Shown here piece after piece: positions 23,678 through 55,520 of a DNA stretch of 57,753 nucleotides (position 1 is the stretch's first letter; each line of letters opens with the position of its first letter). Origin of the DNA: Candidatus Uhrbacteria bacterium. Lineage in GTDB: Bacteria; Patescibacteriota; Patescibacteriia; UBA9934; CAZDDW01. A model generated the notes under the pieces. That model made no database searches and had not been told where the DNA came from. It saw only the letters and a program-made list of their open reading frames with translations. The position numbers were made by a program, and so were the translations under genes. The stretch spans positions 1 through 57,753 of the forward strand of contig JBDRNK010000015.1 in the NCBI GenBank assembly GCA_043811105.1, written 5' to 3'.

Positions 23678-24220
23678 ATGGAAAATACAAATGGATACGG
23701 TTTAATTCAAATTTACACTGGAGATGGAAAAGGTAAGACTACGGCCGCACTTGGTCAGGTTGTTCGGGCTGTTGGTGCGAATAAGCGCGTGGCTGTCTTG
23801 TTTTTCGATAAAGGTGGGGAGCGATATTGTGAGCGGATTGTCTTAGATCGTCTGGGAGTTGATTGGTGGGCCTTTGGCCGTGACCGGCGGATAACTTCGG
23901 ATAAGTTCGATTTCACGATCACAGATCAAGATCGTGTTCAAGCAGCTCGTGGGCTAGATAAGTTGTCACAATTATTTGAATCGAAAAAATACGATTTGAT
24001 AGTACTGGACGAACTGAATACAACAACCAACCTTGGGATGATTAAGGTCGACGAAGTGCTATCAATCCTGAATGTTCGGCCAGACACGATTGAGCTGATT
24101 CTCACCGGCCGCAACGCCCTACAGGAGCTTCTCGACCGTGCTGATTTGGTCTCTGAAGTGCAGAACAAAAAGCATTACTTTGACCAAGGAATCCAGGCGC
24201 GACAAGGTTTAGATTTTTAG
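23678..24220 (+). CDS. cobO: cob(I)yrinic acid a,c-diamide / corrinoid adenosyltransferase (CobA/CobO/BtuR type)
   Basis: P-loop 'IYTGDGKGKTTAALG' and 'LIVLDELN'. Size of 180 aa is typical. Confidence 0.85.
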   Translation: MENTNGYGLIQIYTGDGKGKTTAALGQVVRAVGANKRVAVLFFDKGGERYCERIVLDRLGVDWWAFGRDRRITSDKFDFTITDQDRVQAARGLDKLSQLFESKKYDLIVLDELNTTTNLGMIKVDEVLSILNVRPDTIELILTGRNALQELLDRADLVSEVQNKKHYFDQGIQARQGLDF

Positions 24221-24513
24221 CCCCCCTTCGAAGGGGGGTTTGAGTGAAGGAACCGATACACTTCAGTGTGTCAAAGTTAAAATGTAGAAGAAGGCTTTCT
24301 TGCCGGCCATAGCTTTAGCGACGGCTGGTAAGTCTTTCAATTTGAGGAATGACAGCCGTTAGGTTGTTAGTGAACACGTTCTAGACATGACGGATTTGTT
24401 CGTACGTACGTACAAACACGTCGTTTTAAATAAATATATTCTAACGTAAAATACAAAAAATTTGATTCTTATGGGGTCAGGCGCTTGCCAGTCCTCGATA
24501 GCCTGTCTACATT

Positions 24514-24532
24514 CCCAACCTTTAACGTTGGG
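24514..24532. promoter_or_regulatory. third copy of the CCAACC..GGTTGG palindrome
   Basis: CCCAACCTTTAACGTTGGG (one arm mismatch), followed by ATAGTTTTT. Confidence 0.35.
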
Positions 24533-24540
24533 AATAGTTT

Positions 24541-24630
24541 TTGGATCGCGCAGATCTTATATCAGAAATCCAAAATAAAAAACACTACTTTAGTAGAGTG
24601 GTTCTGGCTCGAGAAGGTTTAGACTTTTAA
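24541..24630 (+). pseudogene. relic 3' end of a second cobO allele
   Basis: It translates to LDRADLISEIQNKKHYFSRVVLAREGLDF*, versus the live C-terminus LDRADLVSEVQNKKHYFDQGIQARQGLDF* (24131-24220). 21 of 29 residues are identical, and the relic keeps its own stop and a downstream terminator. Confidence 0.75.
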
Positions 24631-31871: not shown

Positions 31872-31997
31872 GGGAAAGACGCCCGTAAGGGCGTCAAGGT
31901 TGTGATCTACATTTAAGAAAGCTAATATGACGCCCTGACGGGCGTCTGTCCCACAAAGAAGATTGCTCTCGTGGGGAAAGACGCCCGTAAGGGCGTC
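31872..31997. repeat. REP cluster upstream of the RAYT gene
   Basis: GGGAAAGACGCCCGTAAGGGCGTC / GACGCCCTGACGGGCGTCTGTCCC / GGGGAAAGACGCCCGTAAGGGCGTC. Confidence 0.85.
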
Positions 31998-32003
31998 AAA
32001 GCT

Positions 32004-32543
32004 ATGGCAGTTCCAAGTATCCATCGCCCTTGTCATGATTCAATGAATGTTCCTGGTGAGTATTTTATAACCGGAAAGACAGTAGACGGACAAAAATTCA
32101 TTCAGGCCGGCGAAAGAAAATATGAGTTTCTTGATGTCGTAATCAATTTGTGTGAGCGGCATGCCTTTGAACTGATTGCTTGGATGGTTGCTGATAATCA
32201 TTATCATATTAAAATTTATTCAGATCAAGTATTCAAAATTGGTCGCTTTGCAAACAGTTTACACAGCATCACGGCGAAGATATTTAATGATTTAGATCAG
32301 AAGCCTGGCCGAAAAGTTTGGAACCAATACTGGGATCGTCGAATTCGAGATGAGAAAGAATCCTGGACGGTCTTTAATTATATTCACTGGAATCCAATAA
32401 AGCACAGATACGCAAAGGATTTGTTAGAAGCAACAAAATACAGATACTGTAGTTTAGGAATTTGGCATGAATTGTTGGGTGAAGAGTTGATTGAGGTTTT
32501 TTATGAACAGTATCCGATTGACCAATTCAAACCATTTAAGTAA
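32004..32543 (+). CDS. REP-associated tyrosine transposase (RAYT; IS200/IS605-like Y1 HUH)
   Basis: HUH motif 'DNHYHIKI' and C-terminal 'WNQYWDRRIRDEKESWTVFNYIHWNPIKHRYA' (catalytic Tyr region). I moved the start to ATG 32004 because 31973-31997 is a REP. Confidence 0.8.
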   Translation: MAVPSIHRPCHDSMNVPGEYFITGKTVDGQKFIQAGERKYEFLDVVINLCERHAFELIAWMVADNHYHIKIYSDQVFKIGRFANSLHSITAKIFNDLDQKPGRKVWNQYWDRRIRDEKESWTVFNYIHWNPIKHRYAKDLLEATKYRYCSLGIWHELLGEELIEVFYEQYPIDQFKPFK

Positions 32544-32547
32544 CACT

Positions 32548-32605
32548 GACGCCCTTACGGGCGTCTATCCCCCGAATTAATGGGAGAGACGCCCGTAAGG
32601 GCGTC
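32548..32605. repeat. REP doublet downstream of the RAYT gene
   Basis: GACGCCCTTACGGGCGTCTATCCC and GGGAGAGACGCCCGTAAGGGCGTC. Confidence 0.85.
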
Positions 32606-32616
32606 ATCGTCAGAAT

Positions 32617-49589: not shown

Positions 49590-49659
49590 CCGCCCTGAAC
49601 AAAGGCGGTTTTTTTTGTTGGCCAGCCAAAGTTCTGGTTAAGGCGGGTGGGGTCAGGGC

Positions 49660-49688
49660 TTGACAGCAAGGCTAATTTTAGCTACTAT
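49660..49688 (+). promoter_or_regulatory. cassette promoter
   Basis: TTGACA (49660-49665), N17, TACTAT (49683-49688). Confidence 0.6.
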
Positions 49689-49751
49689 TTATCTCTTCAC
49701 CAATCCTGGTGGAATGTACATACACAACCTCTAGCTAGGGGGAAAGATAAA

Positions 49752-50756
49752 ATGCAATTCGCTGATTACGCAGAGCTGGACAAGCTCGCACGCAGACATC
49801 TGTCCAATAAGGCTGTGAATGAACGGAAAAAGAAAAAGCGTCAGCTTCTAAAAAATGATCACAGGTTAACTTTGAAAACATGGGAGGCACAAGATCTAGG
49901 TGATGAGTTTTCCTGCCAACACGTTTCTGTATATTTTCTATTCTTCATCTTGTCCTTTGCTGCGTCTATTCCTGCCGGGATTGGGCTGGTCTGTGCCGAA
50001 CAGATTTGGGTTAAATTGCTTTGGTTGATGTTGCCAACAGTTATGTTTATACTGAATAGGGTCATTCGGGAAATTAAGGTCATACAGATTCTGAGAAAAG
50101 AATTCGATTTCAAACTACCCAATTTCGACGAATTGAAACCAGCCGAGTACGTAAACATTTACCTCAACGATGAGATTGGGCGATTGCGGGAAGATCTGCT
50201 TGGTAGGACAAGTCAGCTTTCACGAATCAAGGGTCGTTTGGCCAGAACCGACGAGCAAGCACGGACAGTCCGAGCGCAGCTCGAACGTCGTTGTGACGGT
50301 GAGAACACACCTGAATATCTGACCGATGCTCACGAACGTATCCAAGATACCTGTCAGCGGATCGCTGCTAAGCGTGAGACGCTCGACGAGTACACCGCCC
50401 GCATCGAAGCCTTTTTGCGAGAGTGCCAGGCTCAGGTCAAGCGTGTCCAACAGCCCTTGTCCGACCTCGAACTGATTCGTGAGACCAATCGTCTTTGCGA
50501 AGAGACTGAACAACTTGAAATTCGGGCAGCTGCAGTTGTGGTCAGAACGACCTCTGAGCTGACCAGCCGTATGCTCGAAACCAAGAACCGCCTCTACCGT
50601 CAGTTCGAAAGTGCTGGGGTCAGTCTGGCTCTGGCCAGCGCTGAGACAGGTGACGCTCTCAAGAACTTCCAACTTCTCGAATCCACGATCGGCAAGTTCG
50701 TTCCTGCCGATAAGGTTCTCGAAGCCGAATCCGAGGAGACCAGTGCAGCAGGCTGA
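49752..50756 (+). CDS. membrane-anchored coiled-coil protein (cassette 1)
   Basis: I moved the start to ATG 49752, after GGGGGAAAGATAAA. Two TM helices followed by a long heptad-rich C-terminus. Confidence 0.6.
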   Translation: MQFADYAELDKLARRHLSNKAVNERKKKKRQLLKNDHRLTLKTWEAQDLGDEFSCQHVSVYFLFFILSFAASIPAGIGLVCAEQIWVKLLWLMLPTVMFILNRVIREIKVIQILRKEFDFKLPNFDELKPAEYVNIYLNDEIGRLREDLLGRTSQLSRIKGRLARTDEQARTVRAQLERRCDGENTPEYLTDAHERIQDTCQRIAAKRETLDEYTARIEAFLRECQAQVKRVQQPLSDLELIRETNRLCEETEQLEIRAAAVVVRTTSELTSRMLETKNRLYRQFESAGVSLALASAETGDALKNFQLLESTIGKFVPADKVLEAESEETSAAG

Positions 50757-50978
50757 GTCAATCCCTTCCCACCTACCAACACTTCACACCCGCTCCGCCC
50801 GCAGTCCCCAGTAGCTCCATCAGGAGCGTAGGGGGGCAGTCGGTTCTCACCGAGAGTCGTCCATGGGCAGAGGGCGGTCTCACCCTGTACCGACGGCATA
50901 AGCCTTGACCGTCTGGTACAGGGCTTTTTTTATTTTTAACCTTTAGCGTTAAAACGAAGAAGTCGCTTGAAAAGGCGG

Positions 50979-51039
50979 TTTTGAGCAATTAACTCAAGGT
51001 GTTGAAGTCACGAGCCGTGAAGTTGTCAAAGCTCGTCAG
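50979..51039 (+). pseudogene. relic copy of the 3' end of a cassette-2-type gene
   Basis: 61 nt match 51958-52018 with 2 mismatches. It encodes FEQLTQGVEVTSREVVKARQ followed by TGA. Confidence 0.7.
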
Positions 51040-51136
51040 TGATTTGGGGTCAGGCCGGCCTGCCCTGTACCGACGAAGTGCAACGACGTCTGGTACAGGG
51101 GAAACGGGAATCGCTGATAAATTTGGTGACTTACGC

Positions 51137-51165
51137 TTGACGGATAGCCAACATTATGCAAGAAT
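51137..51165 (+). promoter_or_regulatory. cassette promoter
   Basis: TTGACG (51137-51142), N17, AAGAAT (51160-51165). Confidence 0.5.
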
Positions 51166-51208
51166 AAGTTACCGAACCGTAAACAACCAAACTCCACTGG
51201 AGGGAAAA

Positions 51209-52090
51209 ATGATCTGGTGGCCACTTATCACAGCACTGCTTTGCTCGGTATGCGCAATTGGTGGATTGGCTATATTTCGCCGTGCACGTCAAATATCTCT
51301 GAATTCTGTATTTTATAGTGAAGAAGACTTAAAAACTGCTGGAGTAACTATACCCGTTTTCGGACTCGGTATGTTTGGTGCATTACCGATGATAGAACTT
51401 GGGCTACCTTATCTTACCTTTGTTCTCCTCGTTCTCGGAGCTTCGTGCCTGACTCCAGCTACTATTTATGGTATGCGTCAAGCAGAATTGGAACAGAAGT
51501 TTAAGCAACTTCTAGGTGAACAAAGTGAAGCCATCAGAGCAAAGCTGAAAGCCTGGTATCAGAGCTGGCGGGAGCGGGAAAACAAGGTGCTGCGTGATGC
51601 CGGGAGAAAGGCAGATGAACTCTGCGATCTGATTCCTGATGTACCTTGGGAGGAGTTCCGAGGTTTTATCAGACAGGTGGCAAACAACTTTCTGCCCGAG
51701 CTGTACACCCAGGCTCAAGAACTACGAGACGAAGTTGCCCAGGTCGGTGAGATCATCGCCGAGTACAAAGACAAAAAACTCGATGACTTCTCTCGTGGCC
51801 TGCTCGGAAAAAGTGTGGCTGACAAGCAGGAGTTGGAAAAAGCTCTGGCAGAAATCGAGATTCAGATCACAGCCTGCCGTTCTTTCCTCGACCACATCAA
51901 GTCCGACCTGCTGGTGGCTCGCCGACGAGGTACTGGCCTGCCCGAACTTCGAGCTCGTTTTGAGCAATTAACTCAAGGTGTCGAAGCCACGAGCCGTGAA
52001 GTTGTCAAAGCTCGTCAGGAAGTTGATGACATTGGTGATCGACGTGTGGTTAACCTGCCGTCTCATCCTAGACAGCGCACGCCTCAGTGA
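51209..52090 (+). CDS. membrane-anchored coiled-coil protein (cassette 2)
   Basis: I moved the start to ATG 51209, after GGAGGGAAAA. TM helices followed by a coiled coil. Terminator at 52105-52139. Confidence 0.6.
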   Translation: MIWWPLITALLCSVCAIGGLAIFRRARQISLNSVFYSEEDLKTAGVTIPVFGLGMFGALPMIELGLPYLTFVLLVLGASCLTPATIYGMRQAELEQKFKQLLGEQSEAIRAKLKAWYQSWRERENKVLRDAGRKADELCDLIPDVPWEEFRGFIRQVANNFLPELYTQAQELRDEVAQVGEIIAEYKDKKLDDFSRGLLGKSVADKQELEKALAEIEIQITACRSFLDHIKSDLLVARRRGTGLPELRARFEQLTQGVEATSREVVKARQEVDDIGDRRVVNLPSHPRQRTPQ

Positions 52091-52147
52091 TTTATTTCAC
52101 ATCCGCCCCGACTTAATACCAAGTCCGGGGCCTTTTTTATTTATCTC

Positions 52148-52176
52148 TTGACAAAAGGGCTTATTATTGCTAAATT
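52148..52176 (+). promoter_or_regulatory. cassette promoter
   Basis: TTGACA (52148-52153), N17, TAAATT (52171-52176). Confidence 0.6.
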
Positions 52177-52234
52177 TGTATCTTCATCAATTCTGGTGGA
52201 ACGTACATATACAACTCCTAGCTAGGAGGGGAAG

Positions 52235-52834
52235 ATGGAACACACTTCTGTGATCAGTGTTCTCACCGGCTACCTTGCTGGGGGTATTCTCATCATTGGT
52301 TACCTAATATACAACTGGAAGATTTTTAAAGGCACAACAAGACCGAATACTGCCACATGGGCACTTTGGGCATTTATTGTTGGTCTTAACGCTCTAACAT
52401 ACGACAAGATGAGTGCTGACCACATCAAAGCAATTGTCTCTATTGCGAGTGGTGCCTTCTGTATATTCACCTTCCTTTTCTCCTTGTTCACTGGGAAATT
52501 CAAATCACTCGACAGCTGGGACAAGAGTATCTTGGTAATTGGGTTGATCGCTATTGGTGTTTGGTATTACTTTAAAAGTGCTACCTATGCCAATATGTTG
52601 CTCCAGGTGGCAATCGTTATTAGCTTTGTTCCAATCCTTCATAGTGTCTGGAAGGAACCTGATAGCGAGAACTGGCTTCCGTGGATGGTTTGGGTCATTG
52701 CTTACACAGTCTCGATCGTAACAGTCATCATGCGCTGGAACGTTGGTTGGGACATCGTTTATCCCATCAATGGTTTTATCATGCATGGGATCGTTGGCCT
52801 GTTCTCCATTCGACAGACTCGTACCCGCTCCTAA
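52235..52834 (+). CDS. polytopic membrane protein (cassette 3)
   Basis: 199 aa, about 6 TM helices. AGGAGGGGAAG lies directly before the ATG. Terminator CCGCTCCT..AGGAGCGG plus a T-run at 52825-52852. Confidence 0.65.
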   Translation: MEHTSVISVLTGYLAGGILIIGYLIYNWKIFKGTTRPNTATWALWAFIVGLNALTYDKMSADHIKAIVSIASGAFCIFTFLFSLFTGKFKSLDSWDKSILVIGLIAIGVWYYFKSATYANMLLQVAIVISFVPILHSVWKEPDSENWLPWMVWVIAYTVSIVTVIMRWNVGWDIVYPINGFIMHGIVGLFSIRQTRTRS

Positions 52835-52961
52835 ATAAGGAGCGGTTTTTTTATACCACAAAACTTATTTTTAACCCTTAGCGTTAAAACGAAGAACCTT
52901 TGGGGTCAGGCTGGGAAACGGGAATCGCCGCTAAATTTAGCCCAGAATAGACAAGTGTTCC

Positions 52962-52990
52962 TTGACAACAGCTTGTTTTTGTGTTATATT
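52962..52990 (+). promoter_or_regulatory. cassette promoter
   Basis: TTGACA (52962-52967), N17, TATATT (52985-52990). Confidence 0.6.
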
Positions 52991-53061
52991 TCCAAGTCAA
53001 TTCGACCCCGTGACTGGGAAAATGTCGAGATTAAAGTTCATGTACCTTGGAGGATTACAAC

Positions 53062-53373
53062 ATGAGTAGAACAGTTATCACTCTTCCGGATCGAGAAGAG
53101 ATGCTACAGCGTCTCATGCAAGTCAATGACAGGAATCATGTACAGCAGAAGCTCTATCCGATTCTCCTCAACCACGCAGGACAGGAAAAAGTGGCGCAAG
53201 GTATCCCCGTGATGCTTGCTCTGGCCATCAATGACTACACAACGGGTATGCCCGCAGTCGTAGCCGGAATGGTTTGGGATTACGTACCCGCCTGGATCGA
53301 TGCTCTGGTTGACGACCAGGACGTCGCTGCGGAAGCCAAGGCCTTCTTCGAGGCTGCCTTCGCTACTCAGTAG
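53062..53373 (+). CDS. small soluble hypothetical protein (cassette 4)
   Basis: I moved the start to ATG 53062, after GGAGGATTACAAC. Terminator at 53382-53437. Confidence 0.6.
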   Translation: MSRTVITLPDREEMLQRLMQVNDRNHVQQKLYPILLNHAGQEKVAQGIPVMLALAINDYTTGMPAVVAGMVWDYVPAWIDALVDDQDVAAEAKAFFEAAFATQ

Positions 53374-53616
53374 TTTCTCAACCGCCCCACCCATTCGGCC
53401 TTCGAAGCCGCACCTTGGGTAGAGGGCGGCTTTTTTATTTATAGACTAAAAACTAAAAATGGGGTCAGGTCTTGAGTTCGAACCTCAATAGACTAGATAG
53501 TACTGTGGTGCAGGTCTTTGGTTGACTAGTTGCCTCGATCGGACAATCGAACCCAGGGAGATTCTCATCCTCCCCGGGATCATAAAAACCGTCTAGAAAA
53601 ATCTAGCCGGTTTTTA

Positions 53617-53784
53617 TGGTGACCCCAGGGGGAATATAGTCGTGCCGACCATATTGAACTCCTCCGCTCGGAAGACGTTGAATGAATTCAGGTCTTCTCT
53701 CGCTCAGTCGTGCAATCGAACCCAGGGAGTTCTCATCCTCCCTAGGATCACAAAAACCGCCTGGAAGAATCCAGTCGGCTTTTG
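53617..53784. repeat. tRNA-3'-end-like repeat module, copy 1
   Basis: It starts TGGTGACCCCAGGGGGAAT. This is followed by a ~85-nt block almost identical to 55297-55383 (GTCGTGCCGACCATATTGAA...CGTTGAATGAATTCA..GTCTTCTCTCGCTCAGTCG..AATCGAAC). It ends in a bidirectional hairpin. Confidence 0.6.
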
Positions 53785-53993
53785 TGGTGACCTACTGTAT
53801 TGAGAATTGGAACACCATTATCCAACATCTCAAGCAATGGTCAGAAACCTTGCCGCATATTTTGGAAGAAAAAACTTTTGCAATAAATCAACTATAGCAA
53901 GCTCTTTTTGATGGAGATGATTTACAATTCTCTTCATTGGACATCTACTTGTTTTCCAAGGATATATCCCTATTTCTCCGTAACTATTCCAAT

Positions 53994-54620
53994 TTATTCA
54001 CCTTCCGCTAATTTTGCTTGTCGTGCGACGTGTTTCCATTCTTGTGAAGAGAATTTATTTACGATCTCTCCTCCCCAGTTATCTTTATTTTTTGGATCTT
54101 CGTATATTTGCACAGCTGTTTCTGCAAGAGCCGATATAACACCTGGACAATTTTCTTTCATGTAGGCCTGAAAGTTAAATCTCCACGCTTCTTGCAGATC
54201 ATCAGAGAGATCTCCGACAAACTTTGTTTCTTCCTTATCTGTAGCATCGCCCCCAAACTCCGAATCTAACATGCTAAAAACTTCTTTCTTTTCCCTTTGC
54301 ATTTCTTGTGCCTGTTTCCCCGTTGCCTTCCATTGATCTGGGATATCTAATGACTCAATGTTGAGTTCCAGAATTCCCCATTGATGTGCAAAGGCGACTA
54401 ATGGATACCTCTCTTGTATGTCTACCGAGTCGGGGATGCTCGCCGCCATTTCTCCTGTGACTGAATATCTGTTCAGGTCGATATTCATAACTGGATTGTC
54501 GTAACGGCTTGGGGAAGGCGCTATGATGACACCCTCTTGAAATGATGGATTGAACTCTCTATTGGTTTCACGTATCGCATCGGGCGGTGTTTCGCCACCT
54601 CTTCTTCCTTCTTTTGGCAT
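53994..54620 (-). CDS. hypothetical protein
   Basis: 208-aa ORF. No motif recognised. Confidence 0.5.
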   Translation of the reverse strand: MPKEGRRGGETPPDAIRETNREFNPSFQEGVIIAPSPSRYDNPVMNIDLNRYSVTGEMAASIPDSVDIQERYPLVAFAHQWGILELNIESLDIPDQWKATGKQAQEMQREKKEVFSMLDSEFGGDATDKEETKFVGDLSDDLQEAWRFNFQAYMKENCPGVISALAETAVQIYEDPKNKDNWGGEIVNKFSSQEWKHVARQAKLAEGE

Positions 54621-54696
54621 AATATAGAATGATTATGATTTATATGAACAAATTATATCAAATGGGGGGGGTGAAACAAGACTTTTTTGCAAAACG

Positions 54697-54930
54697 TCAA
54701 GAGTGACCTTTTTCCAGTAACTCCAAAATATCTTTCTTCTTATACCGACGATCACCTCGTGTTCCCAAGCGGACGGCAACAAGATTTCCATTCTTGTCCC
54801 AATTACGCAAGGTGTTCGGATGACAATGCAACAAACCAGCCGCCTCTTTGAGAGTCAACAACTCTGGGAGCTTTGTGTCTCGTTGAGTTGACTGATCTTG
54901 CATATTTGATAAGTTACCATAAGTATACAA
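54697..54930 (-). CDS. excisionase/MerR-type helix-turn-helix DNA-binding protein
   Basis: 'LTLKEAAGLLHCHPNTLRNWDKNGNLVAVRLGTRGDRRYKKKDILELL' matches the excisionase-family HTH pattern. Confidence 0.65.
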   Translation of the reverse strand: MYTYGNLSNMQDQSTQRDTKLPELLTLKEAAGLLHCHPNTLRNWDKNGNLVAVRLGTRGDRRYKKKDILELLEKGHS

Positions 54931-55079
54931 ATCTATGCAACCATGGCTGGTACAGGAAGTTTTGATCCAACATCACTATTGATGAAGTTTGACCCTTTGC
55001 TCCTTGGTAAGTTTGCCAAAAAGCAAGAGCTGGATTTTATTATACAGGATAGCGAGGAGGACGAAGACCGTGCCGACCG

Positions 55080-55262
55080 ACGAGGCAGTTGATTACGTGT
55101 TTGGATTCGTTGGAACACTCCCAGAGACATGGATTGACACCGACTTCACACAAAAACAACAGTTACAGAGTTTGATTTTCCCAGAAAAACCCGTGTACAC
55201 CTATTCAGGATTTGAAACACGAGTTTTGTCGCCAATGTTCGCAACAAAAAAGACTCATCATA
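55080..55262 (+). pseudogene. possible C-terminal fragment of a serine recombinase
   Basis: 'WIDTDFTQKQQLQSLIFPEKPVYTYSGFETRVLSPMF' resembles, from memory, the tail of large serine recombinases (..KQrlQklvFPeG..y....yRT..vn.vF). No catalytic domain lies upstream. Confidence 0.3.
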
Positions 55263-55277
55263 TAGATGAGTCCTCTT

Positions 55278-55445
55278 TGGTGACCTCACGGAGAATATGG
55301 TCGTGCCGACCATATTGAATTCCTTCGCTCGGGAGACGTTGAATGAATTCAAGTCTTCTCTCGCTCAGTCGAACAATCGAACTCGCCGAAGTGTCTCATC
55401 CCCATGGAAATCAAAAAGCCGCCGTCCATTTGGACGACGACTTTT
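55278..55445. repeat. tRNA-3'-end-like repeat module, copy 2
   Basis: The first 19 nt, TGGTGACCTCACGGAGAAT (55278-55296), are identical to the 3' end of the adjacent tRNA-Glu gene as read on the + strand. The conserved ~85-nt block follows. It ends in the hairpin GCCGCCGTCC..GGACGACG. Confidence 0.65.
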
Positions 55446-55520
55446 TGGTGACCTCACGGAGAATCGAACTCCGGTTCCAAGGATGAGAACCTTGTGTCCT
55501 AACCACTAGACGATGAGGCC
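55446..55520 (-). tRNA. tRNA-Glu (anticodon CUC), CCA encoded
   Basis: Minus strand: GGCCTCATCGTCTAGTGGTTAGGACACAAGGTTCTCATCCTTGGAACCGGAGTTCGATTCTCCGTGAGGTCACCA. I folded the cloverleaf by hand: 7-bp acceptor, anticodon loop TTCTCAT, T-loop TTCGATT. Confidence 0.9.

What the first reader, a model, noticed from the sequence alone, without database searches (positions are those of the whole stretch)
49649..53469. Modular array of self-contained gene cassettes bounded by the 10-mer TGGGGTCAGG
**The bounding 10-mer.** TGGGGTCAGG occurs 5 times in the window; the 9-mer cores are at 24473, 49649, 51046, 52902 and 53461. Four of these delimit consecutive units in this region.

**Unit structure.** Each unit consists of the 10-mer, optional shared blocks, TTGAC(A/G)-N17 -10, a leader with GGAGG, one ORF and a terminator.

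**Non-coding blocks are shuffled between units:**
- A ~55-nt leader is shared by cassettes 1 and 3: 49691-49751 versus 52180-52234 (..CAAT(C/T)CTGGTGGAA(T/C)GTACATA(C/T)ACAAC..CTAGCTAGG..).
- GGGAAACGGGAATCGC..TAAATTT occurs at about 51098-51127 and 52913-52940.
- The hairpin CCCTGTACCGACG..CGTCTGGTACAGGG occurs at 50883-50923 as a terminator, and again at 51063-51100 without a T-run.
- A 31-nt block TATTTTTAACC(C)TTAGCGTTAAAACGAAGAA occurs at 50931-50961 and 52866-52897.
- A palindrome GCTAAATTTAGC lies near the promoters.

**Encoded proteins.** They are unrelated to each other: two TM + coiled-coil proteins, a 6-TM protein and a 104-aa soluble protein.

**Link to the tRNA-like repeat.** TGGGGTCA equals the 3' acceptor strand of the tRNA-like repeat at 53617-53635 when that repeat is read on the minus strand (..CTGGGGTCACCA).

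**Inference.** This looks like a recombination-driven cassette system (integron-like in logic, but with promoter-bearing cassettes) that I cannot assign to a described type.
Basis: partly seen in the sequence, partly recalled or inferred. Interest (0 to 1): 0.75.

Follow-up and report, generated by a model that had tools for sequence, protein, structure and literature searches.

The report
Shuffled gene units; IS110-targeted 10-mer
Next to a tRNA gene in an uncultured Uhrbacteria (CPR) genome lies a fast-changing block of small genes that each carry their own promoter and terminator and swap these non-coding parts, and the repeated 10-mer at its joints is the sequence an RNA-guided IS110 insertion element targets in a sister lineage.

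Summary

The unit description needs correction:
- There is no 10-mer between genes 2 and 3.
- The last 10-mer precedes no ORF.
- Gene 3 has 7 TM helices (PQ-loop/SWEET-like fold), not 6.

Related contigs support cassette-like behaviour:
- The same promoter + 5'UTR module (81-93% identical) drives three unrelated genes.
- One terminator module closes three different genes.
- Genes 1 and 2 lie in other contexts, or are absent, in relatives.
- A co-occurring strain diverges right after gene 4's terminator.

The 10-mer is not a universal cassette boundary. It is missing from the homologous units in relatives, and homology breakpoints also fall at -35 boxes and terminators.

The new finding concerns a sister lineage. 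There an IS110-family element is inserted inside a copy of the motif. The rebuilt empty site matches window 53461-53474 at 14/14 bases, has the canonical CT core, and the element's left end contains guide-like matches.

The window holds no integrase and no attC sites, so this is not an integron.

Best reading: a tRNA-Glu-linked variable island of moron-like units shuffled through shared regulatory modules, with the 10-mer as a repeated junction motif that serves as an IS110 target. Interest is moderate.

The parts
24472..24481 (+). 10-mer copy 1. It lies inside a ~410-nt insertion after cobO/BtuR and is followed by a promoter-like site and a hairpin, with no gene.
24126..24630 (+). Duplicated cobO 3' end (24126-24220 vs 24536-24630, ~68% nt) bracketing the insertion. 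The insertion's right end is hairpin 24511-24535, whose core AACCTTTAACGTT is the same as in the D12 blocks.
49648..49657 (+). 10-mer copy 2, two bases upstream of the -35 of gene 1. Homology to module A in relatives starts right after it.
49660..49751 (+). Promoter + 5'UTR module A, copy 1 (TTGACA-17-TACTAT, then two leader hairpins, the second covering the Shine-Dalgarno sequence).
49752..50756 (+). Gene c1: 334 aa, 2-3 hydrophobic segments followed by a long charged helical C-terminal half. No family hit.
50883..50929 (+). c1 terminator hairpin + T-run (-26.7 kcal/mol, z -5.5).
50930..50961 (+). D12 block, copy 1 (weak hairpin TTTTAAC-CTTTAGC-GTTAAAA).
50978..51046 (+). Fragment copy (93%) of an internal 3' part of gene c2 (51957-52025). 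It is a rearrangement scar ending 5-7 nt before 10-mer copy 3.
51045..51054 (+). 10-mer copy 3.
51063..51100 (+). Second copy of the c1-terminator stem, without a T-run.
51099..51124 (+). D15 upstream block, copy 1.
51137..52090 (+). c2 promoter (TTGACG-17-AAGAAT) and gene c2 (51209-52090; 293 aa; N-terminal TM segments plus a helical C-terminal half).
52105..52142 (+). c2 terminator. It abuts the -35 of module A copy 2, with no 10-mer between.
52148..52234 (+). Promoter + 5'UTR module A, copy 2.
52235..52834 (+). Gene c3: 199 aa, 7 TM, PQ-loop/SWEET/KDEL-receptor-like fold. It is a conserved resident of the MurF-to-tRNA-Glu interval in three lineages.
52865..52896 (+). D12 block, copy 2.
52901..52910 (+). 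10-mer copy 4.
52913..52961 (+). D15 upstream block, copy 2, with palindrome GCTAAATTTAGC. A homologous block precedes c3 in the sister lineage.
52962..53373 (+). Promoter B (TTGACA-17-TATATT), leader, and gene c4 (53062-53373; 103 aa, helical, soluble).
53382..53436 (+). c4 terminator module (CCGCCCCACCCA...TGGGTAGAGGGCGG + T-run). The same module ends c1 homologues, a c2 homologue, and c3/c4 in relatives. Assemblies break or diverge right after it.
53460..53474 (+). 10-mer copy 5 plus GTCTTG. It is 14/14 identical to the rebuilt empty target of the sister-lineage IS110 element, and forms the minus-strand end of tRNA-like unit U3.
53470..53795 (-). tRNA-like repeat units U3 and U2, each with its own terminator hairpin. 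U2 ends in CTGGGGTCACCA.
53617..55417 (.). Window-specific ~1.66-kb segment between direct repeats U2 and U1 (140 nt, 81%). It carries a 208-aa ORF (53994-54620, minus) and an excisionase-like HTH_17 gene (54697-54930, minus). It is absent from the sister lineage L005.
55446..55520 (-). tRNA-Glu(CUC), the anchor of the island. Its last 19 nt are repeated at 55278-55296.

Best explanation
**What it is.** The block 49.6-55.5 kb is a tRNA-Glu-linked variable island in a Candidatus Uhrbacteria chromosome. It lies between the conserved dcw genes (PBP2, MurF, a 210-aa gene) and an HlyD/ABC exporter.

**How it is built.** It consists of moron-like units, each with its own sigma-70-type promoter, 5'UTR, one lineage-restricted gene and an intrinsic terminator. 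The genes encode a 7-TM PQ-loop-like protein, two TM + helical proteins and one small helical protein.

**How it most likely changes.** The units draw on a small pool of shared non-coding modules: promoter/leader A, promoter B, an upstream block with a GCTAAnnTTAGC palindrome, D12, and a long-stem terminator. Recombination within these modules, plus local duplication and deletion, re-associates modules with unrelated coding sequences and moves, adds or removes genes. The logic is that of PeSL-mediated shuffling in T4-type phages.

**What the 10-mer is.** It is not part of any of these modules. It is a short repeated intergenic motif sitting at joints between modules of different origin. In IS orientation it reads C-CT-GACCCCA, which is the CT core plus the right half of the target site of an IS110-family, bridge-RNA-type insertion sequence present in a sister lineage.

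**Shown:**
- the repeats and the modules;
- their re-association with different genes;
- different gene content, order and context in relatives;
- the IS inserted in the motif.

**Inferred:**
- that the promoters, leaders and terminators are active;
- that shuffling proceeds by homologous or illegitimate recombination at the modules;
- that the 10-mers in this genome are usable IS110 targets.
For: **Context**
- The window is a bacterial chromosome of Ca. Uhrbacteria.

**Modules**
- Module A, from the -35 to the ATG, is 81-93% identical in five copies. These drive c1 (window, L011), c3 (window, L005) and an unrelated gene in L013.
- Homology among the five copies starts exactly at the -35.
- Module A is more conserved (93%) than the neighbouring coding DNA (77-81%).
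- The terminator GCACCTTGGGTAGAGGGCGG+T ends window c4, L005 c4, L011/L012 c1 and L016 c2.
- The junctions c1->c2 and c3->c4 are paralogous (D12-10mer-D15-promoter), although the flanking genes are unrelated.
- The shared blocks are confined to this region of the window.

**Variation between lineages**
- L008 has MurF-150aa-c3-tRNA-Glu, without c1, c2 or c4.
- L005-7 have c3-c4-tRNA-Glu-HlyD, without the 1.66-kb segment.
- A c2 homologue lies next to an HD-domain gene and a toxin-antitoxin pair in L013.
- A c2 homologue lies between two tRNA-like repeat ends in L016.
- A c1 homologue lies next to a tRNA-like repeat end in L011.
- Strain L003 diverges after window position 53436.

**The IS110 element**
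- L013 and L005 overlap by 160 nt inside a DEDD_Tnp_IS110 + Transposase_20 gene.
- The junctions are AAAGGGGT[CAG]ACATC... and ...GACGTGA[CAG]GTCTTGGGG.
- The rebuilt empty site contains GGGGTCAGGTCTTG, which equals window 53461-53474.
- The core is CT, as in IS621 (PMC11208160).
- The left end contains GGGTCAG, the reverse complement of core + right target, and ATAGATGGCT, a 9/10 match to left donor + core.
- These lie in the order expected for target and donor loops. All three matches in order occurred in 0 of 3000 shuffles.
- The left end folds with z = -3.95.
Against: - Only about 29 kb of sequence from relatives could be retrieved, and none from the rest of this genome. The genome-wide count and placement of the 10-mer are therefore unknown.
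- No IS110 copy lies in the window.
- The IS evidence comes from one element in one sister lineage, joined across two contigs. If the IS is multi-copy, the two junctions may belong to different insertions. The target consensus would still hold.
- In the minimum-energy fold the left-target guide candidate lies in a stem, not in a loop.
- Alone, that guide candidate is not significant (34% of shuffles).
- Homologous recombination does not explain why five copies of a 10-mer are identical while both flanks differ.
- In 3 of 5 sites the motif abuts a -35-like CTTG. That pattern also fits a transcriptional role.
Confidence: 0.5

Rival explanations
1. **Dedicated cassette recombination.** The 10-mer would be the crossover site of a site-specific system that excises units as circles and re-inserts them at other 10-mers. 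This is integron-like in logic. The recombinase could be an IS110-type enzyme acting on half-matching sites.
For: - The 10-mers are identical, same-strand, and have unrelated sequence on both sides at five sites.
- The motif sits at every joint between pieces of different origin. In the sister lineage it also sits at the joint between a truncated HTH_17 gene and the D15-like block.
- An RNA-guided recombinase of the lineage recognises it.
- Bridge recombinases can insert, excise and invert between paired sites (PMC11208160).
- Copy 1 lies in an insertion at an unlinked locus, together with a D12-like hairpin.
Against: - No recombinase lies in the 57.7-kb window.
- c2 and c3 are not separated by a 10-mer.
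- Homologous units in relatives lack the 10-mer.
- Observed breakpoints between lineages lie at the -35 and at terminator ends, not at the 10-mer.
- The donor site of the IS is unrelated to the 10-mer.
- No circle or alternative 10-mer-to-10-mer junction has been seen.
Confidence: 0.15
2. **Transcriptional element.** The 10-mer would be an activator or repressor half-site, an UP-like element or an insulator lying just upstream of island promoters. It would be conserved by selection and copied along with the promoters.
For: - All five copies are intergenic and on the strand of the downstream promoters.
- In three sites the motif ends 1-2 nt before CTTGAC, CTTGCC or CTTGAG.
- A second palindromic motif, GCTAAnnTTAGC, also accompanies these promoters.
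Against: - Orthologous or paralogous promoters in relatives work from the same -35 without the 10-mer.
- In copies 3 and 4 the motif lies 82 and 51 nt from the -35.
- The c3 promoter has none.
- The sister-lineage copy is followed by no -35.
- Copy 5 faces the minus-strand tRNA-like repeats.
Confidence: 0.15
3. **Remnants of tRNA-Glu attachment sites.** Serial integration of islands by an integrase at the tRNA-Glu 3' end would leave copies of the acceptor end, which then decayed to TGGGGTCAGG.
For: - TGGGGTCA is the acceptor 3' strand plus discriminator base of tRNA-Glu in the sister lineage, and of the U2 repeat here.
- The island abuts tRNA-Glu.
- The last 19 nt of the tRNA are duplicated at 55278-55296, and the U repeats bracket a 1.66-kb segment carrying an excisionase-like gene.
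- In L011 and L016, c1 and c2 homologues are flanked by such repeat ends.
- tRNA-Glu has the opposite orientation in L008.
Against: - The 10-mers are inverted relative to the tRNA and to every U-repeat end in the window.
- Identity to the tRNA end is only 8 nt, whereas the five 10-mers agree with each other at 10/10.
- No T-arm sequence precedes any copy.
- No integrase was found in the window or the related loci.
Confidence: 0.1
4. **No function.** The 10-mer copies would be by-products of local duplication only.
For: - Copies 3 and 4 lie in paralogous junctions (D12-10mer-D15) and may share one duplication.
- Four of the five copies lie within 3.8 kb.
Against: - Copies 1, 2 and 5 share no flanking homology with the others.
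- The expected count is 0.08.
- The motif is conserved in a sister lineage and is targeted there by an IS.
Confidence: 0.05

Closest known systems
PeSL (promoter-early stem-loop) regulatory cassettes in hyperplastic regions of T4-type phages (Arbiol et al. 2010, PMC2839356; Comeau et al. 2014, PMC4122927)
   Same: - Arrays of small ORFan genes, each bracketed by a strong sigma-70-like promoter and a stem-loop terminator.
- The conserved non-coding pieces are shared by unrelated genes.
- Insertions, deletions and replacements between close relatives map to these pieces.
- No dedicated recombinase is required.
   Different: - This locus is in a cellular (CPR) chromosome next to a tRNA gene, not in a phage.
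- Several distinct modules are involved (two promoter types, a conserved 5'UTR, an upstream palindrome block, D12, a long-stem terminator) rather than one composite motif.
- Mini-circles have not been shown here.
- An extra 10-mer, independent of the promoter and terminator, sits at the joints.
Phage morons (autonomous promoter-gene-terminator units inserted between conserved genes; general knowledge, not tested here)
   Same: Each unit is transcriptionally self-contained, carries a gene of unrelated function, and is present or absent between otherwise collinear relatives.
   Different: There is no phage context: no PHROG hits apart from the HTH gene and no match in the phage or viral collections. 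The units here also share their regulatory flanks with each other.
Integron cassette arrays (IntI, attI, attC)
   Same: A tandem array of single-gene units of unrelated function, with a short conserved sequence at the boundaries. Some chromosomal integron cassettes also carry their own promoters (general knowledge).
   Different: - No IntI or any tyrosine recombinase is present.
- There are no attC-type imperfect inverted repeats of 55-140 nt. D12 is only a 21-nt weak hairpin.
- Every unit has its own promoter and terminator.
- One boundary lacks the motif.
IS110-family bridge-RNA elements that target repeated intergenic sequences, such as IS621 and ISPpu10 at REP elements (PMC11208160; bioRxiv 10.64898/2026.03.19.712850)
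   Same: - The sister-lineage element has DEDD_Tnp_IS110 + Transposase_20 domains.
- It has a ~270-nt structured left end, a CT core and guide-like matches to target and donor.
- Its target is a multi-copy intergenic motif.
   Different: - The target is not the genome's REP family, which is GACGCCC-N4-GGGCGTC next to a RAYT gene at 31971-32543.
- Only the core + right-target half is conserved among the window copies.
- Activity is untested, and no copy is in this window.
tRNA-linked genomic islands built by serial integration
   Same: The locus lies at the 3' side of tRNA-Glu, shows repeats of the tRNA 3' end, carries an excisionase-like HTH gene, and varies in content between strains.
   Different: No integrase is present, the units are only 0.5-1.8 kb, and the 10-mers are inverted relative to the tRNA-derived repeats.

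Membership tests
Integron | Adjacent IntI-type tyrosine recombinase | tested here: not met
   Pfam scans of about 57 window ORFs found no integrase or recombinase. The only transposase-like protein is a RAYT-like one at 31971-32543. Related loci carry only an IS110 transposase.
Integron | attC sites (imperfect inverted repeats R''-L''...L'-R', about 55-140 nt) at the 3' end of each cassette | tested here: not met
   The inverted-repeat search and folding show only terminator hairpins and the weak 21-nt D12 hairpin (-4.1 kcal/mol). No conserved RYYYAAC/GTTRRRY pair lies at every boundary.
Integron | Mostly promoterless cassettes expressed from a common Pc promoter | tested here: not met
   Each gene has its own sigma-70-like promoter and its own terminator.
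PeSL-type modular shuffling | Conserved promoter/terminator motifs shared by unrelated adjacent ORFan genes | tested here: met
   Module A occurs on c1, c3 and L013 gene x. The terminator module occurs on c1, c2, c3 and c4 homologues.
PeSL-type modular shuffling | Indels and replacements between close relatives whose end points lie in the motifs | tested here: met
   - Homology among module A copies begins at the -35.
- L003 diverges at the end of the c4 terminator.
- c1 + c2 sit between two module A copies, which is the pattern expected if a circle integrated through module A. This last point is an inference.
PeSL-type modular shuffling | Circular excision products (mini-circles) | not testable with these tools
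   This needs reads or PCR across predicted circle junctions.
PeSL-type modular shuffling | T4-type phage genome context | tested here: not met
   The context is a chromosome of a CPR bacterium, with no phage matches. The locus works like PeSL shuffling but is not a member of that family.
IS110 / bridge-RNA target site (claim about the 10-mer) | An IS110-family element (DEDD + Transposase_20 domains) inserted in the motif with a CT core | tested here: met
   Met in sister-lineage contigs L013 + L005. Pfam E-values are 1.9e-24 and 1.2e-17. The junctions share CAG, which is CTG in IS orientation, and the empty site equals window 53461-53474.
IS110 / bridge-RNA target site (claim about the 10-mer) | Left-end RNA with loops complementary to target and donor | tested here: inconclusive
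   - Sequence matches: GGGTCAG (7/7), ATAGATGGCT (9/10) and AAGACGT (6/7).
- They lie in the expected order; 0 of 3000 shuffles reproduce this.
- The left end is structured, z = -3.95.
- The loop architecture is not recovered in the minimum-energy fold, there is no Rfam match, and no orthologues are available for covariation.
IS110 / bridge-RNA target site (claim about the 10-mer) | Occupied and empty copies of the same site within one genome or population | not testable with these tools
   No IS110 is in the window.
tRNA-targeting integrative island | Integrase gene plus direct repeats of the tRNA 3' end flanking the island | tested here: inconclusive
   Direct repeats of the tRNA 3' end exist (55278-55296 and the U units), and an excisionase-like HTH gene is present. 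No integrase was found, and the 10-mers are in the opposite orientation to these repeats.
REP/RAYT system | Motif identical to the REP hairpins flanking the RAYT gene | tested here: not met
   The REP family is GACGCCC-N4-GGGCGTC. It is absent from 49.6-55.5 kb and unrelated to TGGGGTCAGG.

The most novel reading that the evidence does not exclude
The 10-mer (CT core + right-target half of an IS110 site) would be the working crossover site of an RNA-guided recombinase. That enzyme would excise and re-insert promoter-bearing gene units at half-matching sites. The tRNA-Glu island of these CPR bacteria would then be a bridge-recombinase-driven cassette array: an integron-like gene-exchange system built on an IS110-type enzyme instead of IntI/attC.
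Probability: 0.12. Interest if true: 0.85.

Novelty: new variant of a known kind. Interest (0 to 1): 0.55.

Why it matters
CPR bacteria have tiny genomes, and little is known about how they gain and exchange genes.

- **Gene turnover.** This locus shows PeSL/moron-style shuffling of self-contained gene units inside a CPR chromosome. A conserved promoter + 5'UTR module moves between unrelated membrane-protein genes. This is a concrete route for rapid turnover of envelope or transport proteins in an episymbiont lineage.
- **A natural IS110 target.** The locus supplies a natural target (GGGGTCAGGTCTT) and candidate guide segments for an uncharacterised IS110 bridge-type element from CPR.
- **A testable possibility.** Such elements, or their target motifs, may mark the joints of variable gene arrays.
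- **A candidate regulatory element.** The conserved leader, with two hairpins of which one covers the Shine-Dalgarno sequence, deserves testing.

Tried and rejected
**Searches that led nowhere**
- A genome-contig scan with MurF returned only an unrelated Moheibacter locus.
- Two metagenome contigs pattern scans, for the leader and the terminator module, gave 0 hits even though JGI contigs with these patterns exist.
- Two viral-contig scans gave 0 hits.
- blastn against phage genomes gave no match.
- Exact-protein look-ups for the 208-aa ORF and cobO found nothing.
- Rfam found only tRNA-Glu in the window and the region, and nothing in the IS left end.
- Pfam, PHROGs, NCBIfam and PADLOC gave no usable hit for c1-c4. 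There were only weak coiled-coil matches to SMC/JetC-type models.
- A PDB sequence search for c3 was empty.
- The c4 structure model was too poor to search with (pLDDT 60).

**Ideas rejected**
1. *The 10-mer belongs to promoter module A.* The alignment of five copies shows that homology begins at the -35.
2. *A first model of the IS ends, with GGGGT as the duplicated core.* Under it the 10-mer would resemble the IS circle junction. It was replaced by the CT-core model, which gives a 14/14 match to copy 5 and the guide matches.
3. *The 10-mers are direct att copies of the tRNA-Glu end.* They have the wrong orientation and share only 8 nt.
4. *The 10-mer is the genome's REP element.* The REP family next to the RAYT gene is different.
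5. *The site at 53460 is a tRNA 3' half.* A T-arm-like hairpin follows it, but ARAGORN and Rfam call nothing.

Full report
**1. Check of the observation**

TGGGGTCAGG occurs five times in the 57,753-nt window: at 24472, 49648, 51045, 52901 and 53460. All copies are on the + strand. Shuffles give a mean of 0.08 matches, and 0 of 100 shuffles reach five. All copies are intergenic.

- leader D5: 49687-49742 vs 52174-52229, 84%;
- block D12: 50930-50961 vs 52865-52896, 97%;
- block D15: 51099-51124 vs 52913-52938, 92%;
- the stem CCCTGTACCGACG/CGTCTGGTACAGGG at 50883-50923 (with a T-run) and at 51063-51100 (without one);
- the palindromes GCTAATTTTAGC at 49671 and GCTAAATTTAGC at 52930.

One block was missed. 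Positions 50978-51046 are a 93% copy of an internal 3' part of gene 2 (51957-52025). This is a rearrangement scar that stops 5-7 nt before the 10-mer at 51045.

Promoter-like sites precede all four genes (49660, 51137, 52148, 52962). Strong hairpins followed by T-runs follow all four. Outside this region the blocks have no other copy in the window. Independent assemblies carry the same sequence at 99.6-100% (L001-L004).

Three corrections are needed:
- There is no 10-mer between genes 2 and 3, so the 'unit' 51045-52901 holds two complete transcription units.
- The 10-mers at 53460 and 24472 head no ORF.
- Gene 3 has seven predicted TM helices, not six.

**2. Context**

The window is an NCBI MAG contig of Candidatus Uhrbacteria (locus tags ABIH67_01005 and ABIH67_01010). 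It is ordinary chromosomal DNA. It carries a class II ribonucleotide reductase, cobO/BtuR, MgtE, RarA/MgsA, PBP2 and MurF.

The four genes lie between MurF plus a 210-aa gene and tRNA-Glu(CUC) at 55446-55520 on the minus strand. An HlyD/ABC exporter follows the tRNA.

Between gene 4 and the tRNA lie these features:
- three tRNA-like repeat units on the minus strand (U3, U2, U1), each with its own terminator;
- a 19-nt copy of the tRNA 3' end at 55278-55296;
- a 1.66-kb segment with a 208-aa ORF and an excisionase-like HTH_17 gene.

No integrase or other recombinase is encoded in the window. The exception is a RAYT-like Y1 transposase at 31971-32543, which has its own unrelated REP hairpins.

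**3. The proteins**

c1 (334 aa) and c2 (293 aa) have N-terminal hydrophobic segments and charged helical C-terminal halves. They show no mutual similarity.

c3 (199 aa) models confidently (pLDDT 82). Its fold matches the 7-TM PQ-loop/SWEET/KDEL-receptor/cystinosin fold, with TM about 0.6 and probability 1.0.

c4 (103 aa) is helical, but the model is poor.

None of the four hits Pfam, PHROGs, NCBIfam or PADLOC above noise. Each of the three searched (c1, c2, c3) has only 2-4 homologue clusters among 5.8 billion proteins. They are lineage-restricted genes.

**4. Comparison with relatives**

| Locus | Relationship | Arrangement |
|---|---|---|
| L002 | same species | collinear; contig ends at window 53436 |
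| L003 (SRR27458548) | co-occurring strain | identical up to 53436, then a GCTAATCTTAGC block and a new TTGACA promoter instead of the 10-mer and U3 |
| L005-7 | sister lineage | c3-c4-tRNA-Glu-HlyD; no 1.66-kb segment; different DNA upstream of c3 |
| L008 | distant relative | PBP-MurF-150aa-c3-tRNA-Glu, tRNA on the other strand; no c1, c2 or c4 |
| L011 | c1 homologue, 70% aa | follows a tRNA-like repeat end, not the 210-aa gene |
| L013 | c2 homologue, 60% aa | between an HD-domain gene and a toxin-antitoxin pair |
| L016 | c2 homologue, 52% aa | between two tRNA-like repeat ends |

So c3, and to a lesser degree c4, are old residents of the MurF-to-tRNA-Glu interval. c1 and c2 are movable additions.

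**5. The non-coding modules travel independently of the genes**

Module A runs from the -35 to the ATG, about 90 nt. It is 81-93% identical in five copies, which drive c1 (window, L011), c3 (window, L005) and an unrelated gene in L013. The left edge of homology is the -35 itself.

The module A leader has two conserved hairpins. The second covers the Shine-Dalgarno sequence and shows one compensatory pair.

The D15-type upstream block precedes c2 and c4 in the window but c3 in L005. The terminator ...GCACCTTGGGTAGAGGGCGG+T ends window c4, L005 c4, L011 and L012 c1, and L016 c2. Module A is better conserved (93%) than the neighbouring coding DNA (77-81%).

In the window, c1 + c2 lie between two module A copies. 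The two junctions c1->c2 and c3->c4 are paralogous (D12-10mer-D15-promoter). This is the pattern expected if DNA enters and leaves by recombination within the shared modules. That is an inference. It is also the logic described for PeSL cassettes in T4-type phages (PMC2839356).

**6. What the 10-mer is**

It is not part of module A, promoter B or the terminator. It is absent as an exact copy from about 29 kb of related sequence.

A sister lineage gives direct evidence. Contigs L013 and L005 overlap by 160 nt inside an IS110-family transposase gene (DEDD_Tnp_IS110 1.9e-24, Transposase_20 1.2e-17). The + strand junctions are:
- ...CTCCAATAAAGGGGT[CAG]ACATCTATC...
- ...GAACGACGTGA[CAG]GTCTTGGGGTGTGAATCGC...

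Removing the ~1.3-kb element leaves AAAGGGGTCAGGTCTTGGGG. This contains GGGGTCAGGTCTTG, which is identical to window 53461-53474.

In IS orientation the target reads AAGAC-CT-GACCCC. Its core is the CT dinucleotide known for IS621. The window 10-mer reads C-CT-GACCCCA, which is the core plus the right-target half.

[quoted passage not shown] By that rule, the ~270-nt left end of the IS contains three matches:
- AAGACGT, a 6/7 match to left target + core;
- GGGTCAG, a 7/7 match to the reverse complement of CTGACCC;
- ATAGATGGCT, a 9/10 match to left donor + core.

These lie in the expected order. The individual frequencies in shuffles are 34%, 1.5% and 0.9%. All three in order occurred in 0 of 3000 shuffles. 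The left end is strongly structured (z = -3.95). The minimum-energy fold does not show the expected loop layout, and Rfam has no match.

If the IS is multi-copy, the two junctions could come from different insertions. The target consensus would be the same.

The rebuilt site sits at the joint between a truncated HTH_17 gene remnant and a D15-like block. So the motif marks a joint there as well. The 10-mer-D15 adjacency is shared with window copies 3 and 4.

**7. The other copies**

Copy 1 (24472) lies inside a ~410-nt insertion that duplicated the last ~95 nt of cobO (24126-24220 vs 24536-24630). The downstream fragment still translates to a cobO-like C-terminus. The insertion ends in a hairpin whose core AACCTTTAACGTT is the core of the D12 blocks. 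The 10-mer and a D12-like hairpin therefore travel together at an unlinked site.

Copy 5 is the minus-strand end of U3. The left-target half CAGGTCTT occurs three times within 53466-53696.

TGGGGTCA is the acceptor 3' end of tRNA-Glu in the sister lineage. The 10-mers are inverted relative to the tRNA and to all U-repeat ends, so simple att duplication does not explain them.

**8. Verdict**

The cassette-like reading is supported for the genes and their regulatory modules. The 10-mer is not the universal boundary, and the system is not an integron.

The best explanation (confidence about 0.5) is a tRNA-Glu-linked variable island of moron-like units, shuffled by recombination in shared promoter/leader/terminator modules. 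The 10-mer is a repeated junction motif that an IS110 bridge-type element of the lineage uses as its target.

The rivals are:
- true site-specific cassette exchange at the 10-mer, possibly by the IS110 enzyme (0.15);
- a transcriptional element (0.15);
- decayed tRNA-Glu att sites (0.10);
- a by-product of duplication (0.05).

The decisive data are the genome-wide distribution of the motif, all IS110 junctions, and read-level junctions in the source metagenomes.

Noticed in passing
window 31971-32543 and flanks 31872-32610; also 1608-1651: A RAYT-like Y1 transposase gene (Pfam Y1_Tnp 5.7e-7; NCBIfam REP-associated tyrosine transposase 6.5e-18, below the cut-off). It is flanked by five exact REP hairpins GACGCCC-N4-GGGCGTC with alternating loop orientation. 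Two diverged copies lie near 1608 and 1634. This looks like a REP/RAYT system in a CPR genome, and it is unrelated to the 10-mer.
   Followed up: partly
window 24126-24630: The last ~95 nt of cobO/BtuR are duplicated (24126-24220 vs 24536-24630, ~68% nt), and the downstream copy still reads as a cobO-like C-terminus. The ~410 nt between them look like the remnant of an element that inserted into the gene's 3' end and supplied a replacement end.
   Followed up: partly
window 53470-53795 and 55278-55417 (minus strand): Three tRNA-like units (U3, U2, U1) each follow a terminator hairpin. They carry a stem-loop with GGATGAGAAC, which is the exact complement of the tRNA-Glu anticodon loop GTTCTCATCC, followed by a GGTTCGATT T-loop-like stretch. 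U1 and U2 end in the tRNA-Glu acceptor end plus CCA. Rfam and ARAGORN do not recognise them. They could be att-site scars or a small RNA that pairs with tRNA-Glu.
   Followed up: partly
window 53617-55417: A 1.66-kb segment is bracketed by 140-nt direct repeats (81% identical). It carries an excisionase-like HTH_17 gene (54697-54930, minus) and a 208-aa ORF with no family hit (53994-54620, minus). It is absent from sister lineage L005. In L013 the HTH gene is truncated at the IS110 target site.
   Followed up: partly
L013 10988-11710 joined to L005 1-741: A ~1.3-kb IS110-family element from a CPR bacterium, with a structured ~270-nt left end, an outward TTGACA in the right end and candidate bridge-RNA guide segments. 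Its inferred target is AAGAC-CT-GACCCC.
   Followed up: yes
window 49689-49751 and 52176-52234; L005 822-883; L011 218-281; L013 7848-7909: A conserved 5'UTR with two hairpins: CUUCACCA-AUCC-UGGUGGAA, and a second that sequesters the Shine-Dalgarno sequence (one compensatory pair). It is shared by three unrelated genes and has no Rfam match. It may be a translational control element.
   Followed up: partly
L013 7235-7728: A RelE/HigB/ParE-like toxin (weak Pfam hits) with an upstream small partner gene lies in the sister-lineage island, next to the c2 homologue.
   Followed up: no
L008 5454-5531 vs window 55446-55520: tRNA-Glu(CUC) lies on the opposite strand, relative to the conserved c3 gene, in a distant relative. 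This indicates an inversion of the tRNA-proximal segment during the history of the locus.
   Followed up: no
window 53436: Two independent assemblies end (L002) or diverge (L003) at exactly this base, the end of the c4 terminator T-run. This marks a population-level structural polymorphism or a repeat boundary.
   Followed up: partly
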